DNA of 19,271 bases from a virus (Duplodnaviria > Heunggongvirae > Uroviricota > Caudoviricetes): the IMG/VR virus record IMGVR_UViG_3300037488_002392, one strand, 5' to 3'. The translations under genes and the position numbers were made by a program. This document shows positions 5,311 to 16,845 of this stretch, in pieces; within the stretch, counting starts at the first letter, position 1, and each line of letters starts with the position of its first letter. The notes below the pieces were generated by a model. It saw nothing but the letters and a program-made list of their open reading frames with translations. It was not told the origin of the DNA and ran no database searches.

Positions 5311-5712
5311 TTACACTGCCGCCTTGAGGGAATTCCTCATCCACTCAAACGCCATTTCCTTCAAGTCTTCGGGGATTGATACTACACCCGAAACCATTAT
5401 ATCTGTAATACATTTTACTGCTACCTGAGCCTCAATTGAAATGTCCTTAGTGTTCTTGGGCTGCTGTTGAATCATTTTCTTTGCCTCCATTATATCCTGA
5501 CATCGCTCGATATCCTTTACATAATCTCTTCCAGTGGCAGCAGTTGCCATAATTAATTTTACGGCAGTTCCTGATTGGAGTATGCTCCACTTCTTTTCTA
5601 GCCATGAGCCAATACCATAGGTGTTCCCATCCTTATCGGTGAGCTTGATGTATTTTTTGCCATCCTTTTCGGCATCTTCTACGTGGTCTACGACAGTAAT
5701 CACATCGGTCAT
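5311..5712 (-). CDS. Hypothetical protein, possible OB-fold ssDNA binder (133 aa)
   Basis: Start moved to MTDVI (ATGA overlap at 5709-5712). Beta-rich N-terminus; C-terminal DISIEAQVAVKC motif shared with 12274-12603. Confidence 0.65.
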   Translation of the reverse strand: MTDVITVVDHVEDAEKDGKKYIKLTDKDGNTYGIGSWLEKKWSILQSGTAVKLIMATAATGRDYVKDIERCQDIMEAKKMIQQQPKNTKDISIEAQVAVKCITDIMVSGVVSIPEDLKEMAFEWMRNSLKAAV

Positions 5713-5882
5713 TTTATCTCTGGTTCCTTGCCACATTTGGGACAAAACTTGAAATGGTTAAGCAGTCTATCTCCGCACTGTGTACATTCCTTTAGGTCTT
5801 CCATCGCTGCACCGTCTTGGTGGCAAAATTTATGGGAATCGTTGATGGTTACGTTCTTGCATATTGGGCATTGTTTAGTCAT
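5709..5882 (-). CDS. Double zinc-ribbon protein (57 aa)
   Basis: Start moved to MTKQC (5882, AGGAAGGA upstream); CPIC...FCHQDG...CTQCG...FCPKCG. Confidence 0.7.
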   Translation of the reverse strand: MTKQCPICKNVTINDSHKFCHQDGAAMEDLKECTQCGDRLLNHFKFCPKCGKEPEIK

Positions 5883-6060
5883 CTTTTTCCTTCCTATTAA
5901 TAGATTTTCCGCATTTTGGGCAGCAATTGTAAAAATACAGCAAGTCCCTGCCGCACTCGCACCTTTCTCTTCCAGTAAGGGTTGCTCCACATTTATAGCA
6001 AAATGAGTCTCCTTCTACGTGTGAATCAAGGGGGTGGTTAACGCATACTAAGTTTGCCAT
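5875..6060 (-). CDS. Double zinc-ribbon protein (61 aa)
   Basis: CVNH...FCYKCG...CECG...CCPKCG; GGAGG SD. Confidence 0.7.
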   Translation of the reverse strand: MANLVCVNHPLDSHVEGDSFCYKCGATLTGRERCECGRDLLYFYNCCPKCGKSINRKEKDD

Positions 6061-7831: not shown

Positions 7832-8050
7832 TTATTGCAGAAACTTTAGGGTTTCTTTCAATTCTTTTATTTCTGTAGCTAATTCAGCCGTCCGTAGGTT
7901 GATGTAGGCTATCATTGCTTCAGGGGGAATCTTCAATCGTTTCCCATCCCTGCTTGCCTTCAACCTGTTCCTTTTTATCAAGTTAGAGACACATTGAGTA
8001 GTCACCCCTAGTAGTCTGGCTGCTTGTGTTGCGGTATAAACTTTAGTCAT
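7832..8050 (-). CDS. Excisionase/MerR-like HTH DNA-binding protein (72 aa)
   Basis: YTATQAARLLGVTTQCVSNLIKRNRLKASRDGKRLKIP; GGAGG SD. Confidence 0.8.
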   Translation of the reverse strand: MTKVYTATQAARLLGVTTQCVSNLIKRNRLKASRDGKRLKIPPEAMIAYINLRTAELATEIKELKETLKFLQ

Positions 8051-8181: not shown

Positions 8182-8298
8182 TCATTTAAGTAATCCGATA
8201 ATTGTTATTATTTTTATTAAGTTACCATTAATAAATATTAGAGTTGTTGCAATGCTTGAAAGTAGTGCAATGATGATAAAGCCTTGTAGGTTAGACAT
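8182..8298 (-). CDS. Hydrophobic peptide (38 aa, not in ORF track)
   Basis: MSNLQGFIIIALLSSIATTLIFINGNLIKIITIIGLLK; AGGAGG SD; paralog of 8062-8169. Confidence 0.7.
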   Translation of the reverse strand: MSNLQGFIIIALLSSIATTLIFINGNLIKIITIIGLLK

Positions 8299-9580
8299 AT
8301 ATCCTCCTATCATTATCCCATGCTAGGGGTATCGATATATCACTATCACCCTGCCTGTTTTTGGCAAGGATTAATTCGGCTGTTCCCCGTAATTCGGGGT
8401 TCTCCATCAAAAGTTCAGGATATTTATCGGGACGGAACATGAGCAGTGCTACGTCAGCGTCCTCCTCCAAGCGACCAGTTTCACGAAAACTAGTGAGAGT
8501 GGGTCTTTTGCTCTTATTGTGCTGGTCTTCTACACCCCTAGATAGTTGTGATAATATAAGTCCAGGCACTTCAAGGGCTTCTAACACTTGTTTTGTTCTT
8601 GTAGAGATTAAGGATACCCTTTCATATGGAGACTTCCCCCCGTCTGCAAATAGTTGAAGGTAATCCACTATGATAGCTGACAACCCATGCGTAAGTTTCA
8701 TAGTTTCTGCTATCCTAAACAGCATATCAGTGGTAACCCCTGCTCCAGTATTAAGTCCTCTTCCCAAAAAGTATATGTTTTTCTCTGCCATCTTAGGCAA
8801 AGTGTTGACTATTTGCTTATAAAACTCATCGTAGTAGTTTCCTATTCTGACAGAGCGAGGATGGACAGCTAACTCAGAGGATATCATTCTATCTAAGAGT
8901 CCTCTCCAATTCATCTCCAACGAAGCGAATAATATATTACCTTGTGTTTGCATATTGTCAGCAATTTGCATTGCAAGGCTGGTCTTTCCGTGGCTCGCAC
9001 GTCCTCCCAGTAGCCACATTTCTCCTTGGAACATTCCCCCCGTTTCATAATCCAATTGTTCGAAACCTGTTTTAATAGAAGTCTTTAATCCGTGAGAGAG
9101 GGTAGCGTATCTGTCTGCTCCCATCAGTGCAAGTTTGTTAGGGGTTATCAGGCTGTCAGTAAGCACTGATTTGCCTATTGTTGATAGCATCTGGTTAGCC
9201 TTTAATAGGTTGTCCTTGGGGTCAACGTTGAGGGATGCCATTGCGCTGATTTGTTCAGAAGCAGAAATAATCTTTCGGTTTACGGAACAGTCCTTAACTA
9301 CTCTGGCATATGATTCTACCCCAACAGATGTCACTGCCCTGGCTACTAAACCAACAATATAGCTAACTCCGCCAGCTTCTTCTAATTTCCCCATCCTATT
9401 TAATTCATGTGGTACAGTAATCTCGTTGGGGGTTTCGCATTTAAGCATGGCAGTATAGATAAGTTGGTGCTCAGAAAGGAAAAAGTCAGATGGCTCTAAA
9501 CTTAAGATTCTTATACAATCGGGGTCAATCAGGATGGCTCCCAGTACCGCCATTTCCCCGTCATCGTTGCGGGGTATCAT
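8291..9580 (-). CDS. dnaB: Replicative DNA helicase DnaB (429 aa)
   Basis: N-terminal EMAVLGAILID, Walker A GGRASHGKTS, IVDYLQL, LSQLSR, RETGRLEEDADV, ILAKNRQG. Start moved to the ATGA overlap at 9580. Confidence 0.93.
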   Translation of the reverse strand: MIPRNDDGEMAVLGAILIDPDCIRILSLEPSDFFLSEHQLIYTAMLKCETPNEITVPHELNRMGKLEEAGGVSYIVGLVARAVTSVGVESYARVVKDCSVNRKIISASEQISAMASLNVDPKDNLLKANQMLSTIGKSVLTDSLITPNKLALMGADRYATLSHGLKTSIKTGFEQLDYETGGMFQGEMWLLGGRASHGKTSLAMQIADNMQTQGNILFASLEMNWRGLLDRMISSELAVHPRSVRIGNYYDEFYKQIVNTLPKMAEKNIYFLGRGLNTGAGVTTDMLFRIAETMKLTHGLSAIIVDYLQLFADGGKSPYERVSLISTRTKQVLEALEVPGLILSQLSRGVEDQHNKSKRPTLTSFRETGRLEEDADVALLMFRPDKYPELLMENPELRGTAELILAKNRQGDSDISIPLAWDNDRRIYV

Positions 9581-9849
9581 TTCATCCACCAACGCCACCG
9601 TGGTAGAAAGGAGTTACTACCACGATGGCTAAGAGAGTAAAGAAGACTCACAAACCAAGAAGGTTTGTAAGCGGAAACGCTTATAGTGGTTATTGGTTTA
9701 TTGATATCAGAATGTTTAAATGAGAATGGTTTGAACCCCTCTACTATAGCACCCCAAGCCAAATCGTTCCACTTACCATGTATGAGCTTGGTGCGTAACT
9801 CTAACTGGGGGGTTCCCCATTCTATTGTGAAAGTAAATGTTTTATTCAC
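9577..9849 (-). CDS. Hypothetical protein (90 aa)
   Basis: Coupled ORF upstream of dnaB; GGGAG SD. Confidence 0.6.
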   Translation of the reverse strand: MNKTFTFTIEWGTPQLELRTKLIHGKWNDLAWGAIVEGFKPFSFKHSDINKPITTISVSAYKPSWFVSLLYSLSHRGSNSFLPRWRWWMK

Positions 9850-10225
9850 CTTCTATCTCTCCCCATTTATCAGGCAAGTCGGGGAATTTCCCCTCATGTC
9901 CTAAGGGTAGCTCAGGGAACTTACCCATCAGGTCAGTTAAGGCTGCGGATGATTTCATACTGAGTTTGAGTTGTTGCCACAGCTCATACAAAACTACTTC
10001 AGAGATGCTACCAAGTACCCGTTCCTGCGATTTATCGAACCTCAGCATCTGCTCTATCTGTTCCATCCACCACTTATCACGGGCAGCCGCTGTCTTGGAG
10101 TCCTGTGCTTTAATTAGGTCTGTAAAGAATGTACGAGGCAATATATAAGCATCAGTGGTGGGGAAAGATGGTGATATTATAACTTGCAATATCTCATCGT
10201 CAATCAATAACCGTTCATTTTCCAT
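9842..10225 (-). CDS. Modular family protein (RLL / AARDKWW / WQQLK), 127 aa
   Basis: ENERLLIDDEI, AQDSKTAAARDKWW, WQQLK. Confidence 0.75.
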   Translation of the reverse strand: MENERLLIDDEILQVIISPSFPTTDAYILPRTFFTDLIKAQDSKTAAARDKWWMEQIEQMLRFDKSQERVLGSISEVVLYELWQQLKLSMKSSAALTDLMGKFPELPLGHEGKFPDLPDKWGEIEGE

Positions 10226-10490
10226 TCCCTATCTCCTCCCTACGCTCTTGCCAGCATTGATAGCACTCCAGTTTGAGAGTATCTTCATCAAACTCTTTGG
10301 TATCAGGATTGAAGATATGGTTATGTGGGCAAGTGCTTTGTGCCCACCCTACCCATTCCTTATCACGAGCAGCGAGCATGGCAGAAGCACCAGCTTCAAA
10401 GTTCTTGTACATTGAACACTGTTGCTCAGGTGGTAAATCCTTGCAGTCACAAGTTTCTTCCCATCCTTCAGGTCGCCATTCTGTTTTCAT
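10215..10490 (-). CDS. Modular family protein (WRP / EAGASAML / RDKEW / CWQERR), 91 aa
   Basis: Start moved to MKTEW (ATGA overlap, AAGGAG SD). Confidence 0.75.
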   Translation of the reverse strand: MKTEWRPEGWEETCDCKDLPPEQQCSMYKNFEAGASAMLAARDKEWVGWAQSTCPHNHIFNPDTKEFDEDTLKLECYQCWQERREEIGNGK

Positions 10491-10669
10491 ATCCCTATCT
10501 CCTTGCGGCGGGATTGCCAACAGTTAAAACATGCACTCTTGGAAGTCCCATCTCGGCGGTGCATACATGTATCTTCTCCCCACTCTACCCACTCTTTATC
10601 ACGGGCAGCGATGGCTTCGTCCCATGCCTTCTCGCAGTCACCATAGGTTTGAAAGTATGGATTATTCAT
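10487..10669 (-). CDS. Modular family protein (AARDKEWVEW / CWQSRRKEIG), 60 aa
   Basis: Shared modules; ATGA overlaps on both sides. Confidence 0.75.
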   Translation of the reverse strand: MNNPYFQTYGDCEKAWDEAIAARDKEWVEWGEDTCMHRRDGTSKSACFNCWQSRRKEIGI

Positions 10670-10953
10670 AACCCTAACTCCTTCTTGAGTTGTTGCCAGC
10701 TCTCTATATGGCAGACTCCCGCTTTATCACAAATCAAACAATGTTCGGAGTCAACCTCCAGGCTTAGACAGGTGCCGATAAACTTCTCTATCCTCTCTAC
10801 CCACCACTTATCACGGGCAGCGGTAGACTTGACATCTTGGGCTTTGCAGAAGTAAGCAATCGAGATATCTCCCGCATGGTCGTAGGCTTCATCATCATTT
10901 AAGAGGTGACAAATTTCAATATTACTTAATAACCTATCCATTGGCTCATTCAT
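10666..10953 (-). CDS. Modular family protein (RLL / AARDKWW / WQQLK), 95 aa
   Basis: DRLLSNIEI, AQDVKSTAARDKWW, WQQLKKE. Confidence 0.75.
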   Translation of the reverse strand: MNEPMDRLLSNIEICHLLNDDEAYDHAGDISIAYFCKAQDVKSTAARDKWWVERIEKFIGTCLSLEVDSEHCLICDKAGVCHIESWQQLKKELGL

Positions 10954-11171
10954 TTCTCACCTCTTAATTCTGCCATACATTGAGGGCAGAGATAGCGATG
11001 TTTTATGTGTATCACATCTCCGCATCCACAATGCAAGGGGATTTTACACGGCTCATCCAAGTAGACCAGCAGGGCAGAGAGCATGGCAGAGGCACCAGCT
11101 TCACACGCTGACCTCTCAGGTTCATCAAATAAATTTCCCCAATCATCAGGTCGCCCATTTATCCAGTTCAT
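10950..11171 (-). CDS. Modular family protein (GRP / EAGASAML / CPxC-ELRGEK), 73 aa
   Basis: Shared modules; ATGA overlaps. Confidence 0.75.
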   Translation of the reverse strand: MNWINGRPDDWGNLFDEPERSACEAGASAMLSALLVYLDEPCKIPLHCGCGDVIHIKHRYLCPQCMAELRGEK

Positions 11172-11437
11172 AACACTCCCATATTTTTTTTGAGTTGTTC
11201 AAAAGCTTGGCATGAAAAAGAATGAACAGAACAAGTAAGTTTATGCTTACAGTTTCCTGAATAGCAACCATAAATTAACTCTTTGACTCCTGCTACCCAC
11301 CACTTATCACGGGCAGCGATGGATTGGTTGCTATGGGCAGCACAGCAACCCCATTTCGAGCAACTATCGCAATCAGGTACTTTTGCTAATGGGTCACGTT
11401 CTGCGCATGGAATACCACCAAGCATATCTTTACTCAT
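11168..11437 (-). CDS. Modular family protein (Cys-rich / AARDKWW / EQLKK), 89 aa
   Basis: Shared modules; ATGA overlaps. Confidence 0.75.
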   Translation of the reverse strand: MSKDMLGGIPCAERDPLAKVPDCDSCSKWGCCAAHSNQSIAARDKWWVAGVKELIYGCYSGNCKHKLTCSVHSFSCQAFEQLKKNMGVL

Positions 11438-11754
11438 TTCTCACCTCTTAATTCATTCATACAAGTAGGGCAGTCTTTACGATGCAAATAGCTTGCTTTA
11501 TATTTGCCGGTTGGGAGCAGGATTACTTCGACCCTACTCGCATCTACCCTATCTCGGTTATCCACCAGATGGGCAGGATTATCACACGGGGCATCCATAT
11601 ATTTCAGCAGTTTGCGTTGACCTTGACAAAGACTCTTGTAATGATCGTGAATTACGCATTGCCCACTTACTACACATTTATTGTATTTACTTTGGTAATG
11701 CTCTCGTGAACTGCATTTATCACACGGATTAACTGGTTTCCAGTCTGTAGCCAT
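11434..11754 (-). CDS. Modular family protein (WKP / CPxC-ELRGEK), 106 aa
   Basis: LLKYMDAPC...RKDCPTCMNELRGEK. Confidence 0.75.
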   Translation of the reverse strand: MATDWKPVNPCDKCSSREHYQSKYNKCVVSGQCVIHDHYKSLCQGQRKLLKYMDAPCDNPAHLVDNRDRVDASRVEVILLPTGKYKASYLHRKDCPTCMNELRGEK

Positions 11755-11939
11755 TAGATTCCCTCCCCTTTTTGTGGACTCATAACAAGTGCGATTCTTT
11801 CGTATTCAATCCTATCAATGTAGACAGCATATCCAGAGTACAAAATTACTCGGCACAGGTTATCATCACAGTATTCAACTCTGCATATATCAGATACCGT
11901 GAGGGGGCAATTCATATTTCTATTGTCTTGTATTTTCAT
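11754..11939 (-). CDS. Small Cys-containing protein (61 aa)
   Basis: Start moved to MKIQD (ATGA overlap; AAGGAG SD embedded in the upstream RKKEIG codons). Confidence 0.65.
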   Translation of the reverse strand: MKIQDNRNMNCPLTVSDICRVEYCDDNLCRVILYSGYAVYIDRIEYERIALVMSPQKGEGI

Positions 11940-12277
11940 AACCCTATCTCCTTCTTGCGTTCTTGCCAGTCCCCCAGGGCAAATTTGGATAGGCAATTGA
12001 ACTCTAAACCATAGTCAGTTTCATGGAATAGGTTAGATTCAAGCCACTCCACCCACTCTTTGTTGCAGGAATCAATGGCTATAGCGACAGCCTTGTTATA
12101 GGCATCTAACGATCCGCAGTTGTCAGCACATTTAATGTCGTCACGGCTATTAGCATTGTGACAATATTTGCAAACTACAGGTATAGATGCCTCGTATTCC
12201 TTCAATCTGTTGCAAGTGTCTGGATACAAGGGGCAATGCCGTATTTCAATCTCACAATTTAGGCAAGGAGTTTTCAT
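11936..12277 (-). CDS. Modular family protein (Cys-rich / NKEWVEW / WQERKKEIG), 113 aa
   Basis: Start moved to MKTPC (ATGA overlap). Confidence 0.7.
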   Translation of the reverse strand: MKTPCLNCEIEIRHCPLYPDTCNRLKEYEASIPVVCKYCHNANSRDDIKCADNCGSLDAYNKAVAIAIDSCNKEWVEWLESNLFHETDYGLEFNCLSKFALGDWQERKKEIGL

Positions 12278-12603
12278 TTCAGGGCACTCCGTATCCATTC
12301 GATTGCCATTGTCTTAATATCTTCCGGTACTTCTACGTTAGCAGCCATTAAATCCGTGACACATTTTACTGCAACCTGTCTTTCAATGCTTAAATCCCGT
12401 GGGTTTTTGGGTGCTGTCTGGCTCAATTCCGCCATTTTATCCATTGAAAGATCATAGCAAAGGTCGAAGTCCTTAACATAGATTTGCCCTTTGTATTCAT
12501 CCATCTGAAGTCTGACTGCTGCGTCCTGCTTTAAGAGCACCCACTTGGCTTCCATATTTCCTTTCCACATAGGATTTTCGCTTTCTAATAATCTCCTGGT
12601 CAT
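12274..12603 (-). CDS. N-terminally different paralog of the 5311-5712 protein (109 aa)
   Basis: DLSIERQVAVKCVTDLM...EWIRSALK aligns with DISIEAQVAVKCITDIM...EWMRNSLK. Confidence 0.7.
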   Translation of the reverse strand: MTRRLLESENPMWKGNMEAKWVLLKQDAAVRLQMDEYKGQIYVKDFDLCYDLSMDKMAELSQTAPKNPRDLSIERQVAVKCVTDLMAANVEVPEDIKTMAIEWIRSALK

Positions 12604-12890
12604 TTATTGGCCTCCTTTAATTCATTAAGACATTGAGGGCAGTCCTTACGATACTTATAAAACTTTTTTCCATTTATTTCTATCAATGGTGCGGCAGTGA
12701 ACCATCCATGCCTTTCATTACTACATGACCCATACATATATTTAACCACATCATGTAGCATGGCAGAGGCACCAGCTTCGTAGGAGTTGGCACATTCCAT
12801 TTCTACATAAGGATTATCAACATGGTCAGGATTGCGGAAATCATGCGGATTCATCCAATCAGTAGGTCGTCCTTTAATCCAGTCTGTCAT
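12600..12890 (-). CDS. Modular family protein (GRP / EAGASAML / CPQC-ELK), 96 aa
   Basis: Start moved to MTDWI (ATGA overlap). Confidence 0.75.
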   Translation of the reverse strand: MTDWIKGRPTDWMNPHDFRNPDHVDNPYVEMECANSYEAGASAMLHDVVKYMYGSCSNERHGWFTAAPLIEINGKKFYKYRKDCPQCLNELKEANK

Positions 12891-13414
12891 AACCCTACCT
12901 CCTTGCGGCGGGATTGCCACACGTTATAAGCGCAAACTTCCTTCCGCATTTCGGGACAATTTGTACACTGTAGATATTTCCGCTCCAAGCAAATGTACGG
13001 CAATAGGTTATGAAATAGTTTATCAAGCCACTCTACCCACTCTTTATCTGTCTTGGCGAGTTGGGCAGCGGATGCCATCTCAGCAAATTCCATCCCCTCA
13101 CACGGCTCTGCTTTCGCTTCGCACTCAAGCGAGTTGTCACAGTCCATACAAAATAATTCCACTAAGTCCATATCACGCAATAGTCTATTTTCGCTCATAA
13201 TCCTACACTCCTTTAGATAGTCACACGATAATCCTTCTTCGAGCAAACAGGGTTTACCATTTATATCACAAGTTGCAATTGGGTCGGTAGGTTGTTGATG
13301 CCCACATTTACCTAAGAGGCTATCAATATATTCTTCATACTGTTCAGATTCATGCCCACTAATTTGCCTGCTTTCATGTTCACGAATCTCATCATCAGAT
13401 GCTAACCTACTCAT
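12887..13414 (-). CDS. Modular family protein (two RL modules / DKEWVEW / WQSRRKEVG), 175 aa
   Basis: MSRLASDDEI and internal MSENRLLRDMDL, suggesting a fusion of two units. Confidence 0.75.
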   Translation of the reverse strand: MSRLASDDEIREHESRQISGHESEQYEEYIDSLLGKCGHQQPTDPIATCDINGKPCLLEEGLSCDYLKECRIMSENRLLRDMDLVELFCMDCDNSLECEAKAEPCEGMEFAEMASAAQLAKTDKEWVEWLDKLFHNLLPYICLERKYLQCTNCPEMRKEVCAYNVWQSRRKEVGL

Positions 13415-13776
13415 AATCCTATCTCCCTCCAGCAAATATCACAAGAATGTTTCTGCTTTATAGGCATATTCCCCGATGTGAAATGCGGGCAAGGTTCGTT
13501 CATATACTCCACCACATCTTTCAATATAGTAGATGCCCCTGCCTCGTAGGCTGCTACACAGATATGGCAAGCATCTGGGTGTTCTTCACAGCGTCCGCAG
13601 TAGTCAGGTTGGCCTACCCATTCTTGTGGTCTCCATTTTTCGAACCTCTGCGTGTTTCTCATTTCCTTTTCTCTTCGAGCTTTTCGTTTAAGTCTCCTAT
13701 CTAGTTCACGAGATAATTTACCACTCTTCCTAATTATTGTTACCTCACTATGCATTACTTCTACTTCTTTGTTCAT
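13411..13776 (-). CDS. Modular family protein (WRP / EAGASTIL / CDICWREIG), 121 aa
   Basis: Basic N-terminal extension plus shared modules; ATGA overlap at 13773-13776. Confidence 0.7.
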   Translation of the reverse strand: MNKEVEVMHSEVTIIRKSGKLSRELDRRLKRKARREKEMRNTQRFEKWRPQEWVGQPDYCGRCEEHPDACHICVAAYEAGASTILKDVVEYMNEPCPHFTSGNMPIKQKHSCDICWREIGL

Positions 13777-14405
13777 ATCCAACTCCTACTTACTGGCGTA
13801 TATTTTATTTCGATGGTCGCTCCTTCAATCATAGGCATTGGGTTGCCTTGAGCAAAAGCCATCTCCCCTGCTTTCCTCATTAAAGTCTCTGAAGGGATGC
13901 AGTATTCACGTGGCACAAGGTTAGGCTTTACTACTGTTACCTTTACATAAGTACGATAGTTAGTTGTTCCCATATTATGGTGGGAGGTTTTGGATAGAGC
14001 CGTGACACCAAGGTCGGGAAGGGGGATAATCTCACCAGTTTCCTTTGCATCCTCAGTTTTTTGCCAGAATTCTGTTGCCCGTGCCATCATCTCTTCATCG
14101 GTGGTTTCAATGAGTTTCTTGCGGTAGACTGACAGCGACCCATCTACTTTACTTATTAACCCATCAACGTTCATAATATAAGGTTTAAAGAGTGCCCTGA
14201 CACGCTTCTCTGACTCAAGGATAGGTTGGAGAAGGTTATCCAATTGCTCTTTAGCCTGTTTGCGTGCATATTTAAGTTCAGCACTGAGTTCCTCAACTCT
14301 TTTCTGCTCAACAATGTTGGTGATTTGGATGTTTTCTGCCCATTTCAATAGGTCAGCGTTTTTTTCTACTACCTTTGACAGGGCTTGCTGTGCGTTATCA
14401 ATCAT
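13773..14405 (-). CDS. Gp157/Mu-Gam-like coiled-coil phage protein (210 aa)
   Basis: Long amphipathic helical N-terminal half, then VVKPNLVPREYCIP...IEGATI, typical of this phage family. Confidence 0.55.
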   Translation of the reverse strand: MIDNAQQALSKVVEKNADLLKWAENIQITNIVEQKRVEELSAELKYARKQAKEQLDNLLQPILESEKRVRALFKPYIMNVDGLISKVDGSLSVYRKKLIETTDEEMMARATEFWQKTEDAKETGEIIPLPDLGVTALSKTSHHNMGTTNYRTYVKVTVVKPNLVPREYCIPSETLMRKAGEMAFAQGNPMPMIEGATIEIKYTPVSRSWI

Positions 14406-14406
14406 G

Positions 14407-14565
14407 TTATTTCCCCAATTTAGGCAAACGGCATATTTTGGGTATTGACTTTGTTGTGTCTATATTCTCGATATAGAGGCTTAATTCCTCGCACCATTCT
14501 CCAGCGGAGGCATTCTTGTTCAAGTAAGGGCATTGACTGCAAGTATTAACTTTTATTATTCTCAT
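14407..14565 (-). CDS. Small Cys-rich protein (52 aa, not in ORF track)
   Basis: MRIIKVNTCSQCPYL...WCEE...PKICRLP; ATGA overlap with the YopX-family stop. Confidence 0.7.
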   Translation of the reverse strand: MRIIKVNTCSQCPYLNKNASAGEWCEELSLYIENIDTTKSIPKICRLPKLGK

Positions 14566-14936
14566 TTCTTTTTCCTTGGTTTCTCATAAATGTTACCAAC
14601 TACTTCCATTGATTGAGAAAATTCTTTATCAAGCGGTTGTGTTTCAACGTGGGGAAAGTCTAGGCAGAATGAGCAATCGTCTTGGTTCCAGATGACTGTT
14701 CCTATGTTCCCGCCGTTATCTTTGAGTAGGTCTCCCTCGTAAATTTCCTTTTTATGTTTATCCTTAATTCCTGTATATTGATAACTGGGGCGGTCATCGC
14801 CATCCATTTTACCAAGCGGCAAGGTCAACCCATCAAAACCATGTCCAAGATATCCCCAGTGATGCCAATGGAAAGGTAGTGTTACTCCGACGGCTGACTG
14901 TTCTTTTATAGCCTGTTTAAATTTTATTATTCTCAT
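14562..14936 (-). CDS. YopX family protein (124 aa)
   Basis: MRIIKFK...QYTGIKDKHKKEIYEGDLL...EVVGNIYE. Confidence 0.9.
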   Translation of the reverse strand: MRIIKFKQAIKEQSAVGVTLPFHWHHWGYLGHGFDGLTLPLGKMDGDDRPSYQYTGIKDKHKKEIYEGDLLKDNGGNIGTVIWNQDDCSFCLDFPHVETQPLDKEFSQSMEVVGNIYEKPRKKK

Positions 14937-16408: not shown

Positions 16409-16555
16409 ATGAAAAGAATTAATTATCACTTAACAGACAAGCAAATCGAGCAATTGAAGGCTATTTCAAAGGAAACGGGTGCCCCCGTGGCGGAACTAAT
16501 ACGGCGGGCGGTGGATGCGTGGTTGCATGAACGGGGGAGGGGTGAAGTAAGATGA
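16409..16555 (+). CDS. Ribbon-helix-helix regulator 2 (48 aa, not in ORF track)
   Basis: MKRINYHLTDKQIEQLKAISKETGAPVAELIRRAVDAWL...; 21 of the first 36 residues identical to regulator 1. Confidence 0.85.
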   Translation: MKRINYHLTDKQIEQLKAISKETGAPVAELIRRAVDAWLHERGRGEVR

Positions 16556-16845
16556 GGGAAGGTTATAATAACTCATTTTATGGTAAGCACCATACTGAAG
16601 AAGCAAAACAGAAGAATAGGGAAGCGCACCTTGGCACCAAATTGAGTGAAGAGACTAAGATGAAGATGAGTGAATCCCATCGCCAAAATGATGTTTGGAC
16701 AGGACGTAAGCATAGTGAAGCATCTATCTTGAAGATGAAGATTGCTAAGTTGGGCAAAAAGGATAGCGAAGAGATGATTTGGGAGAAGTATTGGATACTT
16801 GATGGAGAGCTTTTAATAGGACAAATGTCATTTTTGTATCAATAG
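16552..16845 (+). CDS. NUMOD3-repeat protein without a nuclease domain (97 aa), possible homing-endonuclease remnant
   Basis: FYGKHHTEEAKQK, KLSEETKMKMS, GRKHSEASILKM, GKKDSEE; no GIY-YIG or HNH motif; ATGA overlap with regulator 2. Confidence 0.7.
   Translation: MREGYNNSFYGKHHTEEAKQKNREAHLGTKLSEETKMKMSESHRQNDVWTGRKHSEASILKMKIAKLGKKDSEEMIWEKYWILDGELLIGQMSFLYQ

What the first reader, a model, noticed from the sequence alone, without database searches (positions are those of the whole stretch)
9842..13776. Combinatorial mini-gene library: about 11 genes assembled from a few shared modules linked by ~20-nt identical DNA blocks
Seen: N-modules (RLLxDxE; W[RK]P/GRP), middle modules (EAGASAML; AARDKWW; DKEWVEW) and C-modules (WQQLK; WQxRRKEIG; CPxCxxEL[RK]) occur in different combinations. 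Examples: 10215 = WRP+EAGASAML+RDKEW+CWQ; 10950 and 12600 = GRP+EAGASAML+CPxC; 9842 and 10666 = RLL+RDKWW+WQQLK; 12887 = RL+RLL+DKEW+WQ. Module cores are conserved at DNA level (exact 19-22-nt repeats), while the intervening Cys-rich segments are unrelated. Inference: the repeats are recombination handles that shuffle hypervariable metal-binding segments on a shared helical scaffold, a homology-driven diversification system without a reverse transcriptase or dedicated invertase. The Gp157/Gam-like and putative SSB genes nearby could support it.
Basis: partly seen in the sequence, partly recalled or inferred. Interest (0 to 1): 0.8.

Follow-up and report, generated by a model that had tools for sequence, protein, structure and literature searches.

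The report
Recombining mini-gene array in sediment phage
Eleven tiny neighbouring phage genes belong to one undescribed family of small, probably zinc-binding and probably paired proteins, and related phages in nature have swapped the halves of these genes at a 21-letter DNA block they all share.

Summary
Window 9842-13776 (minus strand) holds 11 paralogous mini-genes plus 2 unrelated ones, joined by ATGA stop/start overlaps. They share eight exact 19-26-nt blocks; with proteins fixed and codons resampled the mean is 0.15 and the maximum 3 in 1000 trials.

The "modules" are mostly variants of one homologous ~56-residue core: a long helix, C-x-H, a variable loop, CxxC and a C-terminal helix. 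The two subfamilies align with hhalign probability 90%. The family has at least 282 representatives and no Pfam, PHROG or fold match.

The recombination-handle idea holds at population level:
- The 21-mer encoding AARDKWW occurs in 32 metagenome contigs.
- In 36 instances, 21 left-flank types meet 21 right-flank types in 29 combinations. Similarity falls from ~97% to random within 0-5 nt of the block.
- Near-identical contigs differ by 298-, 679- and 797-nt indels whose junctions lie in this block.

The block encodes the predicted homodimer interface. The C-terminal blocks carry the next gene's ribosome-binding site.

No dedicated machinery was found, and the Gp157/SSB claim is unsupported. 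This is a new variant of a known kind (compare T-even gp38 motif shuffling and PeSLs). Function is unknown; diversified binders of host factors is my guess.

The parts
13411..13776 (-). g13411, family member (B-type N half with WRPQEW and EAGASTIL, ends CWREIGL); its ATG at 13776 overlaps the stop of the upstream gene (ATGA)
   Evidence: its EAGASTIL uses different codons from the other copies
12887..13414 (-). g12887, family member (RLL motif, DKEWVEW, WQSRRKEVGL), 175 aa
   Evidence: its C half is 93% identical in DNA to L021, where it follows a different N half
12600..12890 (-). g12600, family member (GRP, EAGASAML, CPQCLNELKEANK), 96 aa
   Evidence: P0041/L024 has the same N half and end with a different loop
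12274..12603 (-). g12274, non-family gene; its first 16 codons are shared with a different (HNH-like) gene in L004 and L024
11936..12298 (-). g11936, family member (NKEWVEW, WQERKKEIGL); probable true start is the ATG at 12279, overlapping the g12274 stop
11754..11939 (-). g11754, non-family 61-aa gene inside the array
11434..11754 (-). g11434, family member (WKP, CPTCMNELRGEK), 106 aa
11168..11437 (-). g11168, family member (AARDKWW, FEQLKKNMGVL), 89 aa
10950..11171 (-). g10950, family member (GRP, EAGASAML, CPQCMAELRGEK), 73 aa
10666..10953 (-). g10666, family member (RLL, AARDKWW, WQQLKKELGL), 95 aa
   Evidence: 99% DNA identity to L024 across the g10950/g10666 boundary
10487..10669 (-). 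g10487, minimal family member (60 aa, core domain only)
10215..10490 (-). g10215, hybrid member: B-type N half (WRP, EAGASAML) joined to A-type C half (AARDKEW, CWQERREEIG)
9842..10225 (-). g9842, family member without cysteines (RLL, AARDKWW, WQQLK) and with a long tail
10067..10087 (-). AARDKWW handle (21-mer GCTGCCCGTGATAAGTGGTGG), copy in g9842
10797..10822 (-). AARDKWW handle copy in g10666 (26-nt exact match with 11293-11318)
11293..11318 (-). AARDKWW handle copy in g11168
10580..10600 (-). DKEWVEW 21-nt block in g10487 (exact partner at 13028-13048)
13028..13048 (-). DKEWVEW 21-nt block in g12887; the 93% match to L021 starts here
11080..11102 (-). EAGASAML 23-nt block in g10950 (exact partner at 12757-12779)
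12757..12779 (-). EAGASAML 23-nt block in g12600
10499..10519 (-). WQSRRKE 21-nt block in g10487 (partner at 12899-12919); its 3' end is the AAGGAG Shine-Dalgarno of the next gene
12899..12919 (-). WQSRRKE 21-nt block in g12887
10950..10970 (-). ELRGEK, stop and next-gene ATG block (SD AGAGGTGA, ATGA overlap); partner at 11434-11454
11434..11454 (-). Second copy of the ELRGEK/stop/ATG block

Best explanation
The locus is a tandem, translationally coupled array of 11 paralogues of one previously undescribed family of small phage proteins (55-175 aa). Their shared ~56-residue core is predicted to be a long helix, a C-x-H ... CxxC (probably zinc) knuckle carrying a hypervariable loop, and a C-terminal helix. 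It is predicted to form a symmetric homodimer through the conserved helix. The family diversifies by homologous recombination at very short identical DNA blocks, above all the 21-mer that encodes AARDKWW. These crossovers occur between paralogues in one array (unequal crossovers giving fusions, deletions and insertions) and between related phages. They re-join unrelated N-terminal halves with unrelated loop/C-terminal halves. The internal blocks are conserved because they encode the dimer interface and scaffold. Their extra identity at synonymous sites is best explained by repeated recombination or heteroduplex homogenisation across the shared gene pool. The C-terminal blocks (KEIGL-stop, ELRGEK-stop, ELKEANK-stop) are also constrained because they contain the Shine-Dalgarno site and overlapping ATG of the next gene. 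Shown here: the family, the array, DNA identity beyond codon expectation, and breakpoints at the blocks in natural relatives. Predicted by models: the fold and the dimer. Inferred: zinc binding, and a function as a diversified set of binders of host or rival factors (host takeover or counter-defence) expressed from the early leftward operon.
For: Family and single domain:
- All-vs-all blastp and phmmer link the 11 genes.
- The A and B subfamily profiles align with hhalign probability 90%, E 1.5e-6.
- A profile search finds 282 representatives at E<=1e-3, all 54-148 aa with the domain at the C terminus.
- C54, C76 and C79 are near-invariant in 150 sequences.
- The AlphaFold model of g10215 has pLDDT 81.6, with H21-51, a hairpin and H77-87.

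DNA identity beyond protein constraint:
- Eight exact matches of 19 nt or more, against a null mean of 0.15 and maximum of 3.
- Same-codon rate at identical residues is 329/609 against 246 expected, concentrated in some pairs and absent for g13411.
- RDKWW is coded identically in 47 of 47 instances, and CGT is used for Arg in 55 of 55 although it makes up 20% of Arg codons.

Recombination at the blocks:
- L004 and L005 are 100% identical over 334 nt, then unrelated immediately after the GASAMLSA block.
- 16 of 20 internal ends of long, high-identity matches lie within 9 nt of a block, although such positions cover only 2-19% of the sequence.
- The exact 21-mer occurs in 32 metagenome contigs.
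- In 36 instances, 21 left and 21 right flank types form 29 combinations. Seven left types have two or more right partners. Within-type identity is 96.6% and between-type identity is 33%.
- Identity stops 0-2 nt after the block or 0-5 nt before it.
- L051 equals L038 minus 797 nt, with the crossover inside CCCGTGATAAGTGGTGG, bracketed by diagnostic mismatches.
- Further 298- and 679-nt indel junctions lie in the same handle, and others lie at SD/gene-boundary blocks.
- Protein mosaics include P0036/P0067, P0003/g10215, P0016/g12887, P0041/g12600 and P0127.
- Arrays are common in the lineage: 129 family ORFs in 47 loci, up to 8 per 3.1 kb.

Dimer:
- The model supports but does not show binding. 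The score is 0.53 against a best control of 0.04. That mark was reached by 20 of 30 proteins solved as pairs and 1 of 23 solved as single chains. The runs share at least 69% of contacts, and partner pLDDT is at least 74.
- The interface residues include 19-21, 23-25, 27-28 (the IAARDKEWV block) and 51, 55, 58, 60 (the C-terminal block).

Translational coupling:
- SD plus ATGA lie inside the last codons of nearly every gene.
Against: - Inside the window itself there is no long recent conversion tract. Paralogues share only the short blocks, so exchange within this particular genome is not directly seen.
- The flank network has no closed cycle (cycle rank 0), so a strict four-gamete test is not met in this sample.
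- The 32 contigs were found with the exact 21-mer, which biases the codon counts for that block. Unbiased instances are few (L002, L004, L005, L019, L021), though all are canonical.
- Homogenisation by recombination is an inference. A nucleotide-level function for the AARDKWW block is not excluded.
- Function, zinc binding and dimerisation are predictions only. Fold searches found nothing.
Confidence: 0.72

Rival explanations
1. This is ordinary tandem duplication and divergence. The blocks are identical only because the encoded residues are essential, and no exchange between copies occurs.
For: The motifs are constrained at the protein level. g13411 keeps EAGASTIL with different codons. GASAML and DKEWVEW vary freely at synonymous sites across the population. 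The blocks map to the predicted dimer interface.
Against: The codon-resampling null is rejected: 8 observed against a maximum of 3 in 1000 trials. RDKWW codons are invariant in 47 of 47 instances. Similarity switches abruptly from 97-100% to random at the block in many contig pairs. A precise parental/recombinant trio exists in L038a, L038b and L051.
Confidence: 0.05
2. This is a dedicated, programmed diversification system. The AARDKWW 21-mer would be an actively targeted recombination hot spot. The trigger could be a phage-encoded HNH-type or other free-standing endonuclease, or a Chi-like signal in its GTGGTGG end. Arrays would then be reshuffled at high frequency during infection.
For: Synonymous sites of this one block are extremely invariant, including non-preferred CGT and AAG codons, whereas other motifs of the same proteins vary. 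Crossovers are confined to about 17-26 nt. Several contigs end exactly at the block (L004; L033, L048 and L056), as expected if populations branch there. An HNH-like gene sits inside related arrays with borrowed gene ends. A NUMOD3 gene lies in the window.
Against: No recombinase, reverse transcriptase or confirmed endonuclease is linked to the array. The L024 gene has no Pfam HNH hit, and the window's 540-aa protein has no Pfam hit. Junctions also occur at other short repeats such as SD/gene boundaries, as general homologous recombination predicts. The resemblance to Chi is only partial and recalled from memory, and the host is unknown. No rate data exist.
Confidence: 0.12
3. The blocks are conserved at the DNA level because they are nucleic-acid signals (ribosome-binding sites, internal starts, regulator or RNA motifs). 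On this view recombination at them is a by-product.
For: This is clearly true for the C-terminal blocks. KEIGL-stop reads AAGGAGATAGGGTTATGA, and the ELRGEK-stop and ELKEANK-stop blocks likewise contain the SD, spacer and overlapping ATG of the next gene. The same ends are found on an unrelated HNH-like gene.
Against: The internal AARDKWW, DKEWVEW and EAGASAML blocks are mid-gene and have no downstream start. There is no Rfam match and no promoter or terminator consensus at them. No function is known for the 21-mer.
Confidence: 0.1
4. The apparent mosaics are metagenome assembly chimeras created at short repeats.
For: Most relatives are ~1-5 kb contigs from short-read assemblies. Every cluster checked is a singleton. 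Reads could not be inspected.
Against: The shared repeats are 17-41 nt, far below the final k-mers of the assemblers involved (contig names show k141). The same mosaic pattern appears in independent sources: JGI, ENA, Logan and IMG/VR. It also appears inside the 92.8-kb contig of the window. Several arrangements recur in different samples (L036/L057, L038/L051, L031/L044).
Confidence: 0.03

Closest known systems
gp38 adhesins and distal tail-fibre genes of T-even phages (conserved glycine-rich motifs separating hypervariable segments; Trojet et al. 2011, PMC3157838, citing Tetart et al. 1996/1998)
   Same: It is a small phage protein in which conserved motifs form the structural core and separate hypervariable segments. 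[quoted passage not shown] A large natural library of interchangeable segments exists.
   Different: The protein family and fold are unrelated. Here the genes are non-structural early genes in arrays of up to 11 paralogues, so exchange can be intragenomic (unequal crossover) as well as between phages. The main handle is a single 21-nt block that is invariant at synonymous sites. Specificity and function are unknown.
PeSL (promoter-early stem-loop) cassettes mediating modular shuffling in hyperplastic regions of T4-type phages (Arbiol et al. 2010, PMC2839356; Comeau et al. 2014, PMC4122927)
   Same: Short repeated sequences at the borders of small non-essential genes act as recombination points. 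They cause insertion, deletion and replacement of small ORFs between close relatives (abstract). The SD/ATGA gene-end blocks here behave in the same way.
   Different: PeSLs are intergenic promoter-terminator elements. Here the main handles lie inside coding sequence and swap halves of proteins, and the boundary handles are translational-coupling signals. Mini-circles were not tested.
Cassette exchange by gene conversion at conserved flanking DNA: Neisseria pilE/pilS mini-cassettes, and C-terminal toxin cassettes after the VENN (CdiA) or PxxxxDPxGL (Rhs) motifs (recalled from general knowledge, not checked here)
   Same: Variable coding cassettes are bounded by short DNA blocks conserved at the nucleotide level. 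These blocks serve as crossover points. Tandem stores of alternative cassettes exist.
   Different: Here all copies are complete genes that appear to be expressed and are translationally coupled, rather than silent or orphan cassettes feeding one expression site. The element is a virus. No toxin or immunity pairing is seen.
Diversity-generating retroelements and shufflons (programmed phage/plasmid diversification)
   Same: Both concern hypervariability focused on a displayed segment of a small scaffold protein in a mobile element.
   Different: There is no reverse transcriptase, template/variable repeat pair or adenine-specific substitutions. There are no inverted sfx-type repeats and no Rci-type recombinase. 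All repeats are direct, and variation is whole-segment replacement.

Membership tests
Any curated protein family (Pfam-A, PHROGs) | Significant profile match | tested here: not met
   No hit below E 0.01 for any of the 11 window members or for 10 diverse relatives. Foldseek against the PDB and AFDB clusters gave no match with E<=1.
Motif-mediated modular shuffling (T-even gp38 type) | Conserved motifs alternate with hypervariable segments in one protein family | tested here: met
   Alignments A1 and A3. Right-flank types show 33% identity between types, against 96.6% within types.
Motif-mediated modular shuffling (T-even gp38 type) | Natural chimeras whose breakpoints fall in or next to the conserved motifs | tested here: met
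Motif-mediated modular shuffling (T-even gp38 type) | Recombinants obtained experimentally, with changed specificity | not testable with these tools
PeSL-type regulatory cassette shuffling | Repeated promoter plus stem-loop terminator elements between the small genes | tested here: not met
   Genes overlap by ATGA with no intergenic space. No promoter or terminator consensus lies at the blocks. The boundary repeats are SD/start signals instead.
Diversity-generating retroelement | Reverse transcriptase gene and TR/VR repeat pair with A-specific differences | tested here: not met
   About 30 window ORFs scanned with Pfam show no RT. Differences between copies are segment replacements, not A-to-N substitutions. 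The rest of the ~93-kb genome could not be searched.
Shufflon / invertase switch | Inverted crossover repeats and a site-specific recombinase | tested here: not met
   All handles are direct repeats on one strand. Only weak, unrelated inverted pairs were found. No recombinase appeared in the Pfam scans of the window.
Zinc-ribbon/zinc-knuckle proteins (generic) | Four conserved metal ligands in two knuckles | tested here: inconclusive
   C54, C76 and C79 are at least 90% conserved, and C-P-H is common. However, the fourth ligand is not invariant, g9842 lacks cysteines, and no metal data exist.

The most novel reading that the evidence does not exclude
The 21-nt AARDKWW block, and perhaps the WQSLKQS block, may be an actively maintained recombination hot spot, for example the target of a phage endonuclease or a Chi-like signal. 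This would make the array a true combinatorial generator. It would continually produce new N-half/loop combinations of small dimeric proteins that share one interface, so heterodimers between paralogues would multiply the diversity. Such a system would serve as a reverse-transcriptase-free counter-defence or host-takeover repertoire.
Probability: 0.13. Interest if true: 0.9.

Novelty: new variant of a known kind. Interest (0 to 1): 0.68.

Why it matters
The locus is an unusually clean natural example of exon-shuffling-like evolution inside proteins of only 60-120 residues. The crossover point can be read to within a few bases, and parental and recombinant arrangements are both preserved in metagenomes.

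It defines a new, widespread but unannotated family of small phage proteins. It also suggests a general design: a conserved dimerising, probably zinc-stapled scaffold whose coding sequence doubles as the recombination handle for hypervariable parts.

If the variable parts bind host defence or takeover targets, such arrays would be a rich source of natural inhibitors. The scaffold plus handle would be a ready-made format for library construction. The locus also explains why these regions assemble poorly, with singleton ~1-kb contigs.

Tried and rejected
- DNA search of the phage collection with the whole locus found no match.
- A search for relatives of DnaB in IMG/VR found none.
- The whole genome is not held.
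- L003, most of L006-L017 and L016 were chance pattern hits and were ignored.
- Pfam and PHROGs found nothing for family members or relatives.
- The fold searches were empty. The Atlas returned only unnamed viral clusters scoring below 0.9.
- Rfam found nothing.
- The Gp157/Gam and SSB neighbours were not confirmed. The best result was a PHROG 'exonuclease' hit at E 0.014 for 13773-14405.
- I read the L024/L004 inserted gene as HNH-like from its CxxC...CxxCH pattern, but Pfam gives no HNH hit, so this stays a guess.
- The plus-strand ORFs (for example 10325-10855) were rejected as antisense shadows of the minus-strand genes.
- A DnaA-box reading of the reverse complement of the handle was rejected because it does not fit TTATNCACA.

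Full report
**1. What is there**

The stretch 9577-14565 is coded entirely on the minus strand. It belongs to a leftward operon that probably starts at the strong promoter-like site at 15226-15198. The operon runs on into a DnaB-type helicase gene at 8291-9598 (PHROG 19, E 1e-64).

Between 13776 and 9842 lie 13 tightly packed small genes. Eleven are mutually related by blastp and phmmer, and a family HMM finds exactly these eleven. Two genes (11754-11939 and 12274-12603) are unrelated.

Almost every gene starts with an ATG that overlaps the previous stop (ATGA). Each is preceded by a Shine-Dalgarno sequence lying inside the last codons of the upstream gene. For example, KEIGL-stop is AAG GAG ATA GGG TTA TGA. 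ELRGEK-stop and ELKEANK-stop are built the same way.

**2. The observation**

Exact direct repeats of 19-26 nt link different genes.

With the eleven proteins held fixed and codons redrawn from the window's usage (1000 trials), exact matches of 19 nt or more between genes average 0.15 and never exceed 3. Eight are observed. At aligned identical residues the same codon is used 329 times out of 609, against 246 expected. The excess is concentrated in particular pairs and is absent for g13411, which spells EAGASTIL with different codons.

So the motifs are constrained as protein, and in a subset of copies there is additional identity at the DNA level.

**3. One domain, not a box of modules**

An alignment of the C-terminal ~60 residues of all members gives one architecture:
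- a helix, in which EAGASAML is immediately followed by AARDKxWVxW in g10215;
- C-(P)-x-H;
- a loop of very variable length;
- CxxC;
- a short helix ending in the gene-junction residues.

Profiles of the two subfamilies, built without the hybrid genes, align with hhalign probability 90% (E 1.5e-6) and a four-residue indel at ARDK.

A profile search of 1.84 billion representative proteins finds 282 members at E<=1e-3. All are 54-148 aa with the domain at the C terminus. None of the window members or relatives scanned matches Pfam or PHROGs.

AlphaFold models are confident: pLDDT 78.6 for g10487, and 81.6 for g10215 with 150 sequences. They show a helix at 21-51, a hairpin and a helix at 77-87. 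Three cysteines are near-invariant. Foldseek finds nothing similar in the PDB or AFDB clusters.

A homodimer of g10487 passes the control test. The model supports binding but does not show it. The score is 0.53 against a best control of 0.04. That mark was reached by 20 of 30 proteins solved as pairs and 1 of 23 solved as single chains. The runs share at least 69% of contacts, and partner pLDDT is at least 74. The interface is made by residues 19-21, 23-25 and 27-28 (IAARDKEWV) and by 51, 55, 58 and 60. These are the residues encoded by the conserved blocks.

**4. Evidence from relatives that the blocks are crossover points**

(a) Proteins
- P0003 has the N half of g10215 (about 83% identical) joined to a B-type C half.
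- P0036 and P0067 share an identical N half through GASAMLSA, then carry B-type and A-type C halves respectively.
- P0016 has the C half of g12887 behind another N half.
- P0041 has the N half and end of g12600 around another loop.
- P0127 joins the N half of g10487 to a g11936-like loop.

(b) DNA
- L004 and L005, from two ENA samples, are 100% identical for 334 nt. They become unrelated immediately after the GASAMLSA block, and L005 continues with the canonical CGTGATAAGTGGTGG.
- Window-to-relative matches begin or end at blocks. L021 is 93% identical from 13048 (DKEWVEW) to the gene end. L024 is 99% identical from 10979 (CMAELRGEK) onward.
- In L024, a single HNH-like gene carries the first 16 codons of g12274 and the CMAELRGEK end. 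It stands where the window has six genes.
- Overall, 16 of 20 internal ends of long matches lie within 9 nt of a block. Such positions make up only 2-19% of the sequences.

(c) Population sample
- The exact 21-mer GCTGCCCGTGATAAGTGGTGG occurs in 32 JGI metagenome contigs.
- Among 36 non-redundant instances with full flanks, there are 21 left-flank types and 21 right-flank types in 29 combinations.
- Seven left types have two or more right partners, and four right types have two or more left partners. One right type is joined to four unrelated left halves.
- Flanks of the same type are 96.6% identical, while different types are at 33%, which is random level.
- Exact identity ends 0-2 nt after the block or 0-5 nt before it.
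- The network has no closed cycle, so a strict four-gamete test is not met in this sample.

(d) Parents and product
- L038 carries two paralogues, one with ATRDKWW and one with AARDKWW.
- L051, otherwise 99.6-99.8% identical, has the left gene up to the block fused to the right gene after it, and lacks the 797 nt between.
- Diagnostic mismatches confine the crossover to CCCGTGATAAGTGGTGG.
- Among contigs at least 95% identical, other indels of 298 and 679 nt have junctions in the same handle. One lies in a CPxC C-terminal block, and several lie at SD/start boundaries.

Arrays of this family are typical of the lineage: 129 family ORFs in 47 loci, with up to 8 in 3.1 kb. A more generic member sits alone in an unrelated 49-kb phage contig.

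**5. Which blocks are DNA handles**

Across all loci, RDKWW is always CGT GAT AAG TGG TGG (47 of 47). CGT is used in 55 of 55 RDK[WE]W instances, although it accounts for only 20% of Arg codons. WQSLKQS is also nearly invariant in DNA. By contrast, GASAML has 15 codon versions in 24 instances, and DKEWVEW has 5 in 6.

Most RDKWW instances were found through the exact 21-mer, so this count is biased. The instances found by other routes (L002, L004, L005, L019, L021 and the window) are all canonical. The RLL and WRP N-terminal motifs are conserved only as protein.

**6. Interpretation**

The best-supported reading has three parts.
- A fast-evolving multigene family diversifies by homologous recombination at short identical blocks.
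- The internal blocks encode the scaffold and dimer interface.
- The terminal blocks encode the translational-coupling signals.

Recombination both needs and renews the identity, so the handles evolve in concert. No recombinase, reverse transcriptase or inverted repeats were found in the window. The Gp157 and SSB claims have no profile support.

A dedicated hot-spot mechanism, such as an endonuclease target or a Chi-like signal, remains possible but unsupported. I note from memory that the handle ends in GTGGTGG, which only partly resembles E. coli Chi (GCTGGTGG).

Function is unknown. The arrays sit in an early operon, the loops and N-terminal parts are hypervariable, and turnover is rapid. 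On these grounds I favour a repertoire of small dimeric binders aimed at host or competitor factors, with confidence of about 0.3 for that part.

**7. Comparison with what is known**

The closest precedents are the following.
- T-even gp38 adhesins and tail-fibre genes, where exchanges occur in or near conserved motifs that separate hypervariable segments (PMC3157838).
- PeSL-mediated shuffling of small genes in T4-type hyperplastic regions (PMC2839356; PMC4122927).
- By analogy, and from general knowledge, pilS/pilE mini-cassettes and the toxin-tip cassettes of CdiA and Rhs.

The differences here are:
- an undescribed protein family;
- handles inside tiny early genes arranged in large arrays;
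- a 21-nt handle invariant at synonymous sites;
- coincidence of the handle with a predicted dimer interface.

I rate it a new variant of a known kind.

**8. Limits**

- The rest of the ~93-kb genome could not be searched.
- The fold, zinc binding and dimer are predictions.
I reached it independently and confirmed it.

Noticed in passing
L004:614-979 and L024:1421-1783; window 12556-12603: A 120-aa CxxC...CxxCH (HNH-like by eye, no Pfam HNH hit) gene sits inside related arrays. It carries the same first 16 codons as window gene g12274 (MTRRLLESENPMWKGN) and a family-type end (CMAELRGEK or CMAELKEIGL). Unrelated genes therefore share the same junction 'linkers'.
   Followed up: partly
L019:196-747 (also L020:1246-1797): A 183-aa protein just upstream of a related array matches the CRISPR Cas2 domain (PF09827, E 1.3e-5, 25.8 bits against a cut-off of 23.8). 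This is a Cas2-like gene in a phage-like contig.
   Followed up: no
L005:461-1039: A radical SAM gene (PF04055, E 1.4e-17) directly follows the recombinant mini-gene P0067. The otherwise identical contig L004 has an HNH-like gene at that position instead.
   Followed up: no
L004 end (1156-1176); L033, L048 and L056 ends: Several metagenome contigs stop exactly at or a few bases from the AARDKWW 21-mer. This is expected if the assembly graph branches there because the population carries several continuations.
   Followed up: partly
window 10203-10176 (-): A near-consensus sigma-70-like site (TTGACG, 16 nt, TATAAT; 11 of 12) lies inside the 5' part of g9842. It could be an internal promoter for the genes downstream of the array.
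   Followed up: no
window 9646-9672 (-): A terminator-like hairpin (11 pairs, then a T-rich tail) lies inside the 90-aa gene 9577-9849, between the array and dnaB.
   Followed up: no
Its identity remains open.
   Followed up: partly
window 5709-5990 (-), 7832-8050 (-), 16552-16845 (+), 14562-14936 (-): Other recognisable small genes are a double zinc ribbon (PF12773), an HTH_17 excisionase-like protein, a NUMOD3 protein (a homing-endonuclease DNA-binding motif) and a YopX protein.
   Followed up: no
L036, L047, L051, L057 (gene ending ...WQSLKQSLDTNWC...KKSLEVKE) vs L050 (...WQSLKQSLEVKE): A 32-codon Cys-rich insertion sits between two copies of a short K[QK]SL-EVKE repeat at the end of one mini-gene. 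This looks like another small repeat-bounded cassette.
   Followed up: no
L025:10001-10261: A generic single-copy member of the family (LLSDEEI..., CPH..., CWQSLKKEVG) sits at the head of an operon next to a divergent control region in an unrelated 49-kb phage contig. The family is older and wider than the recombining arrays.
   Followed up: partly
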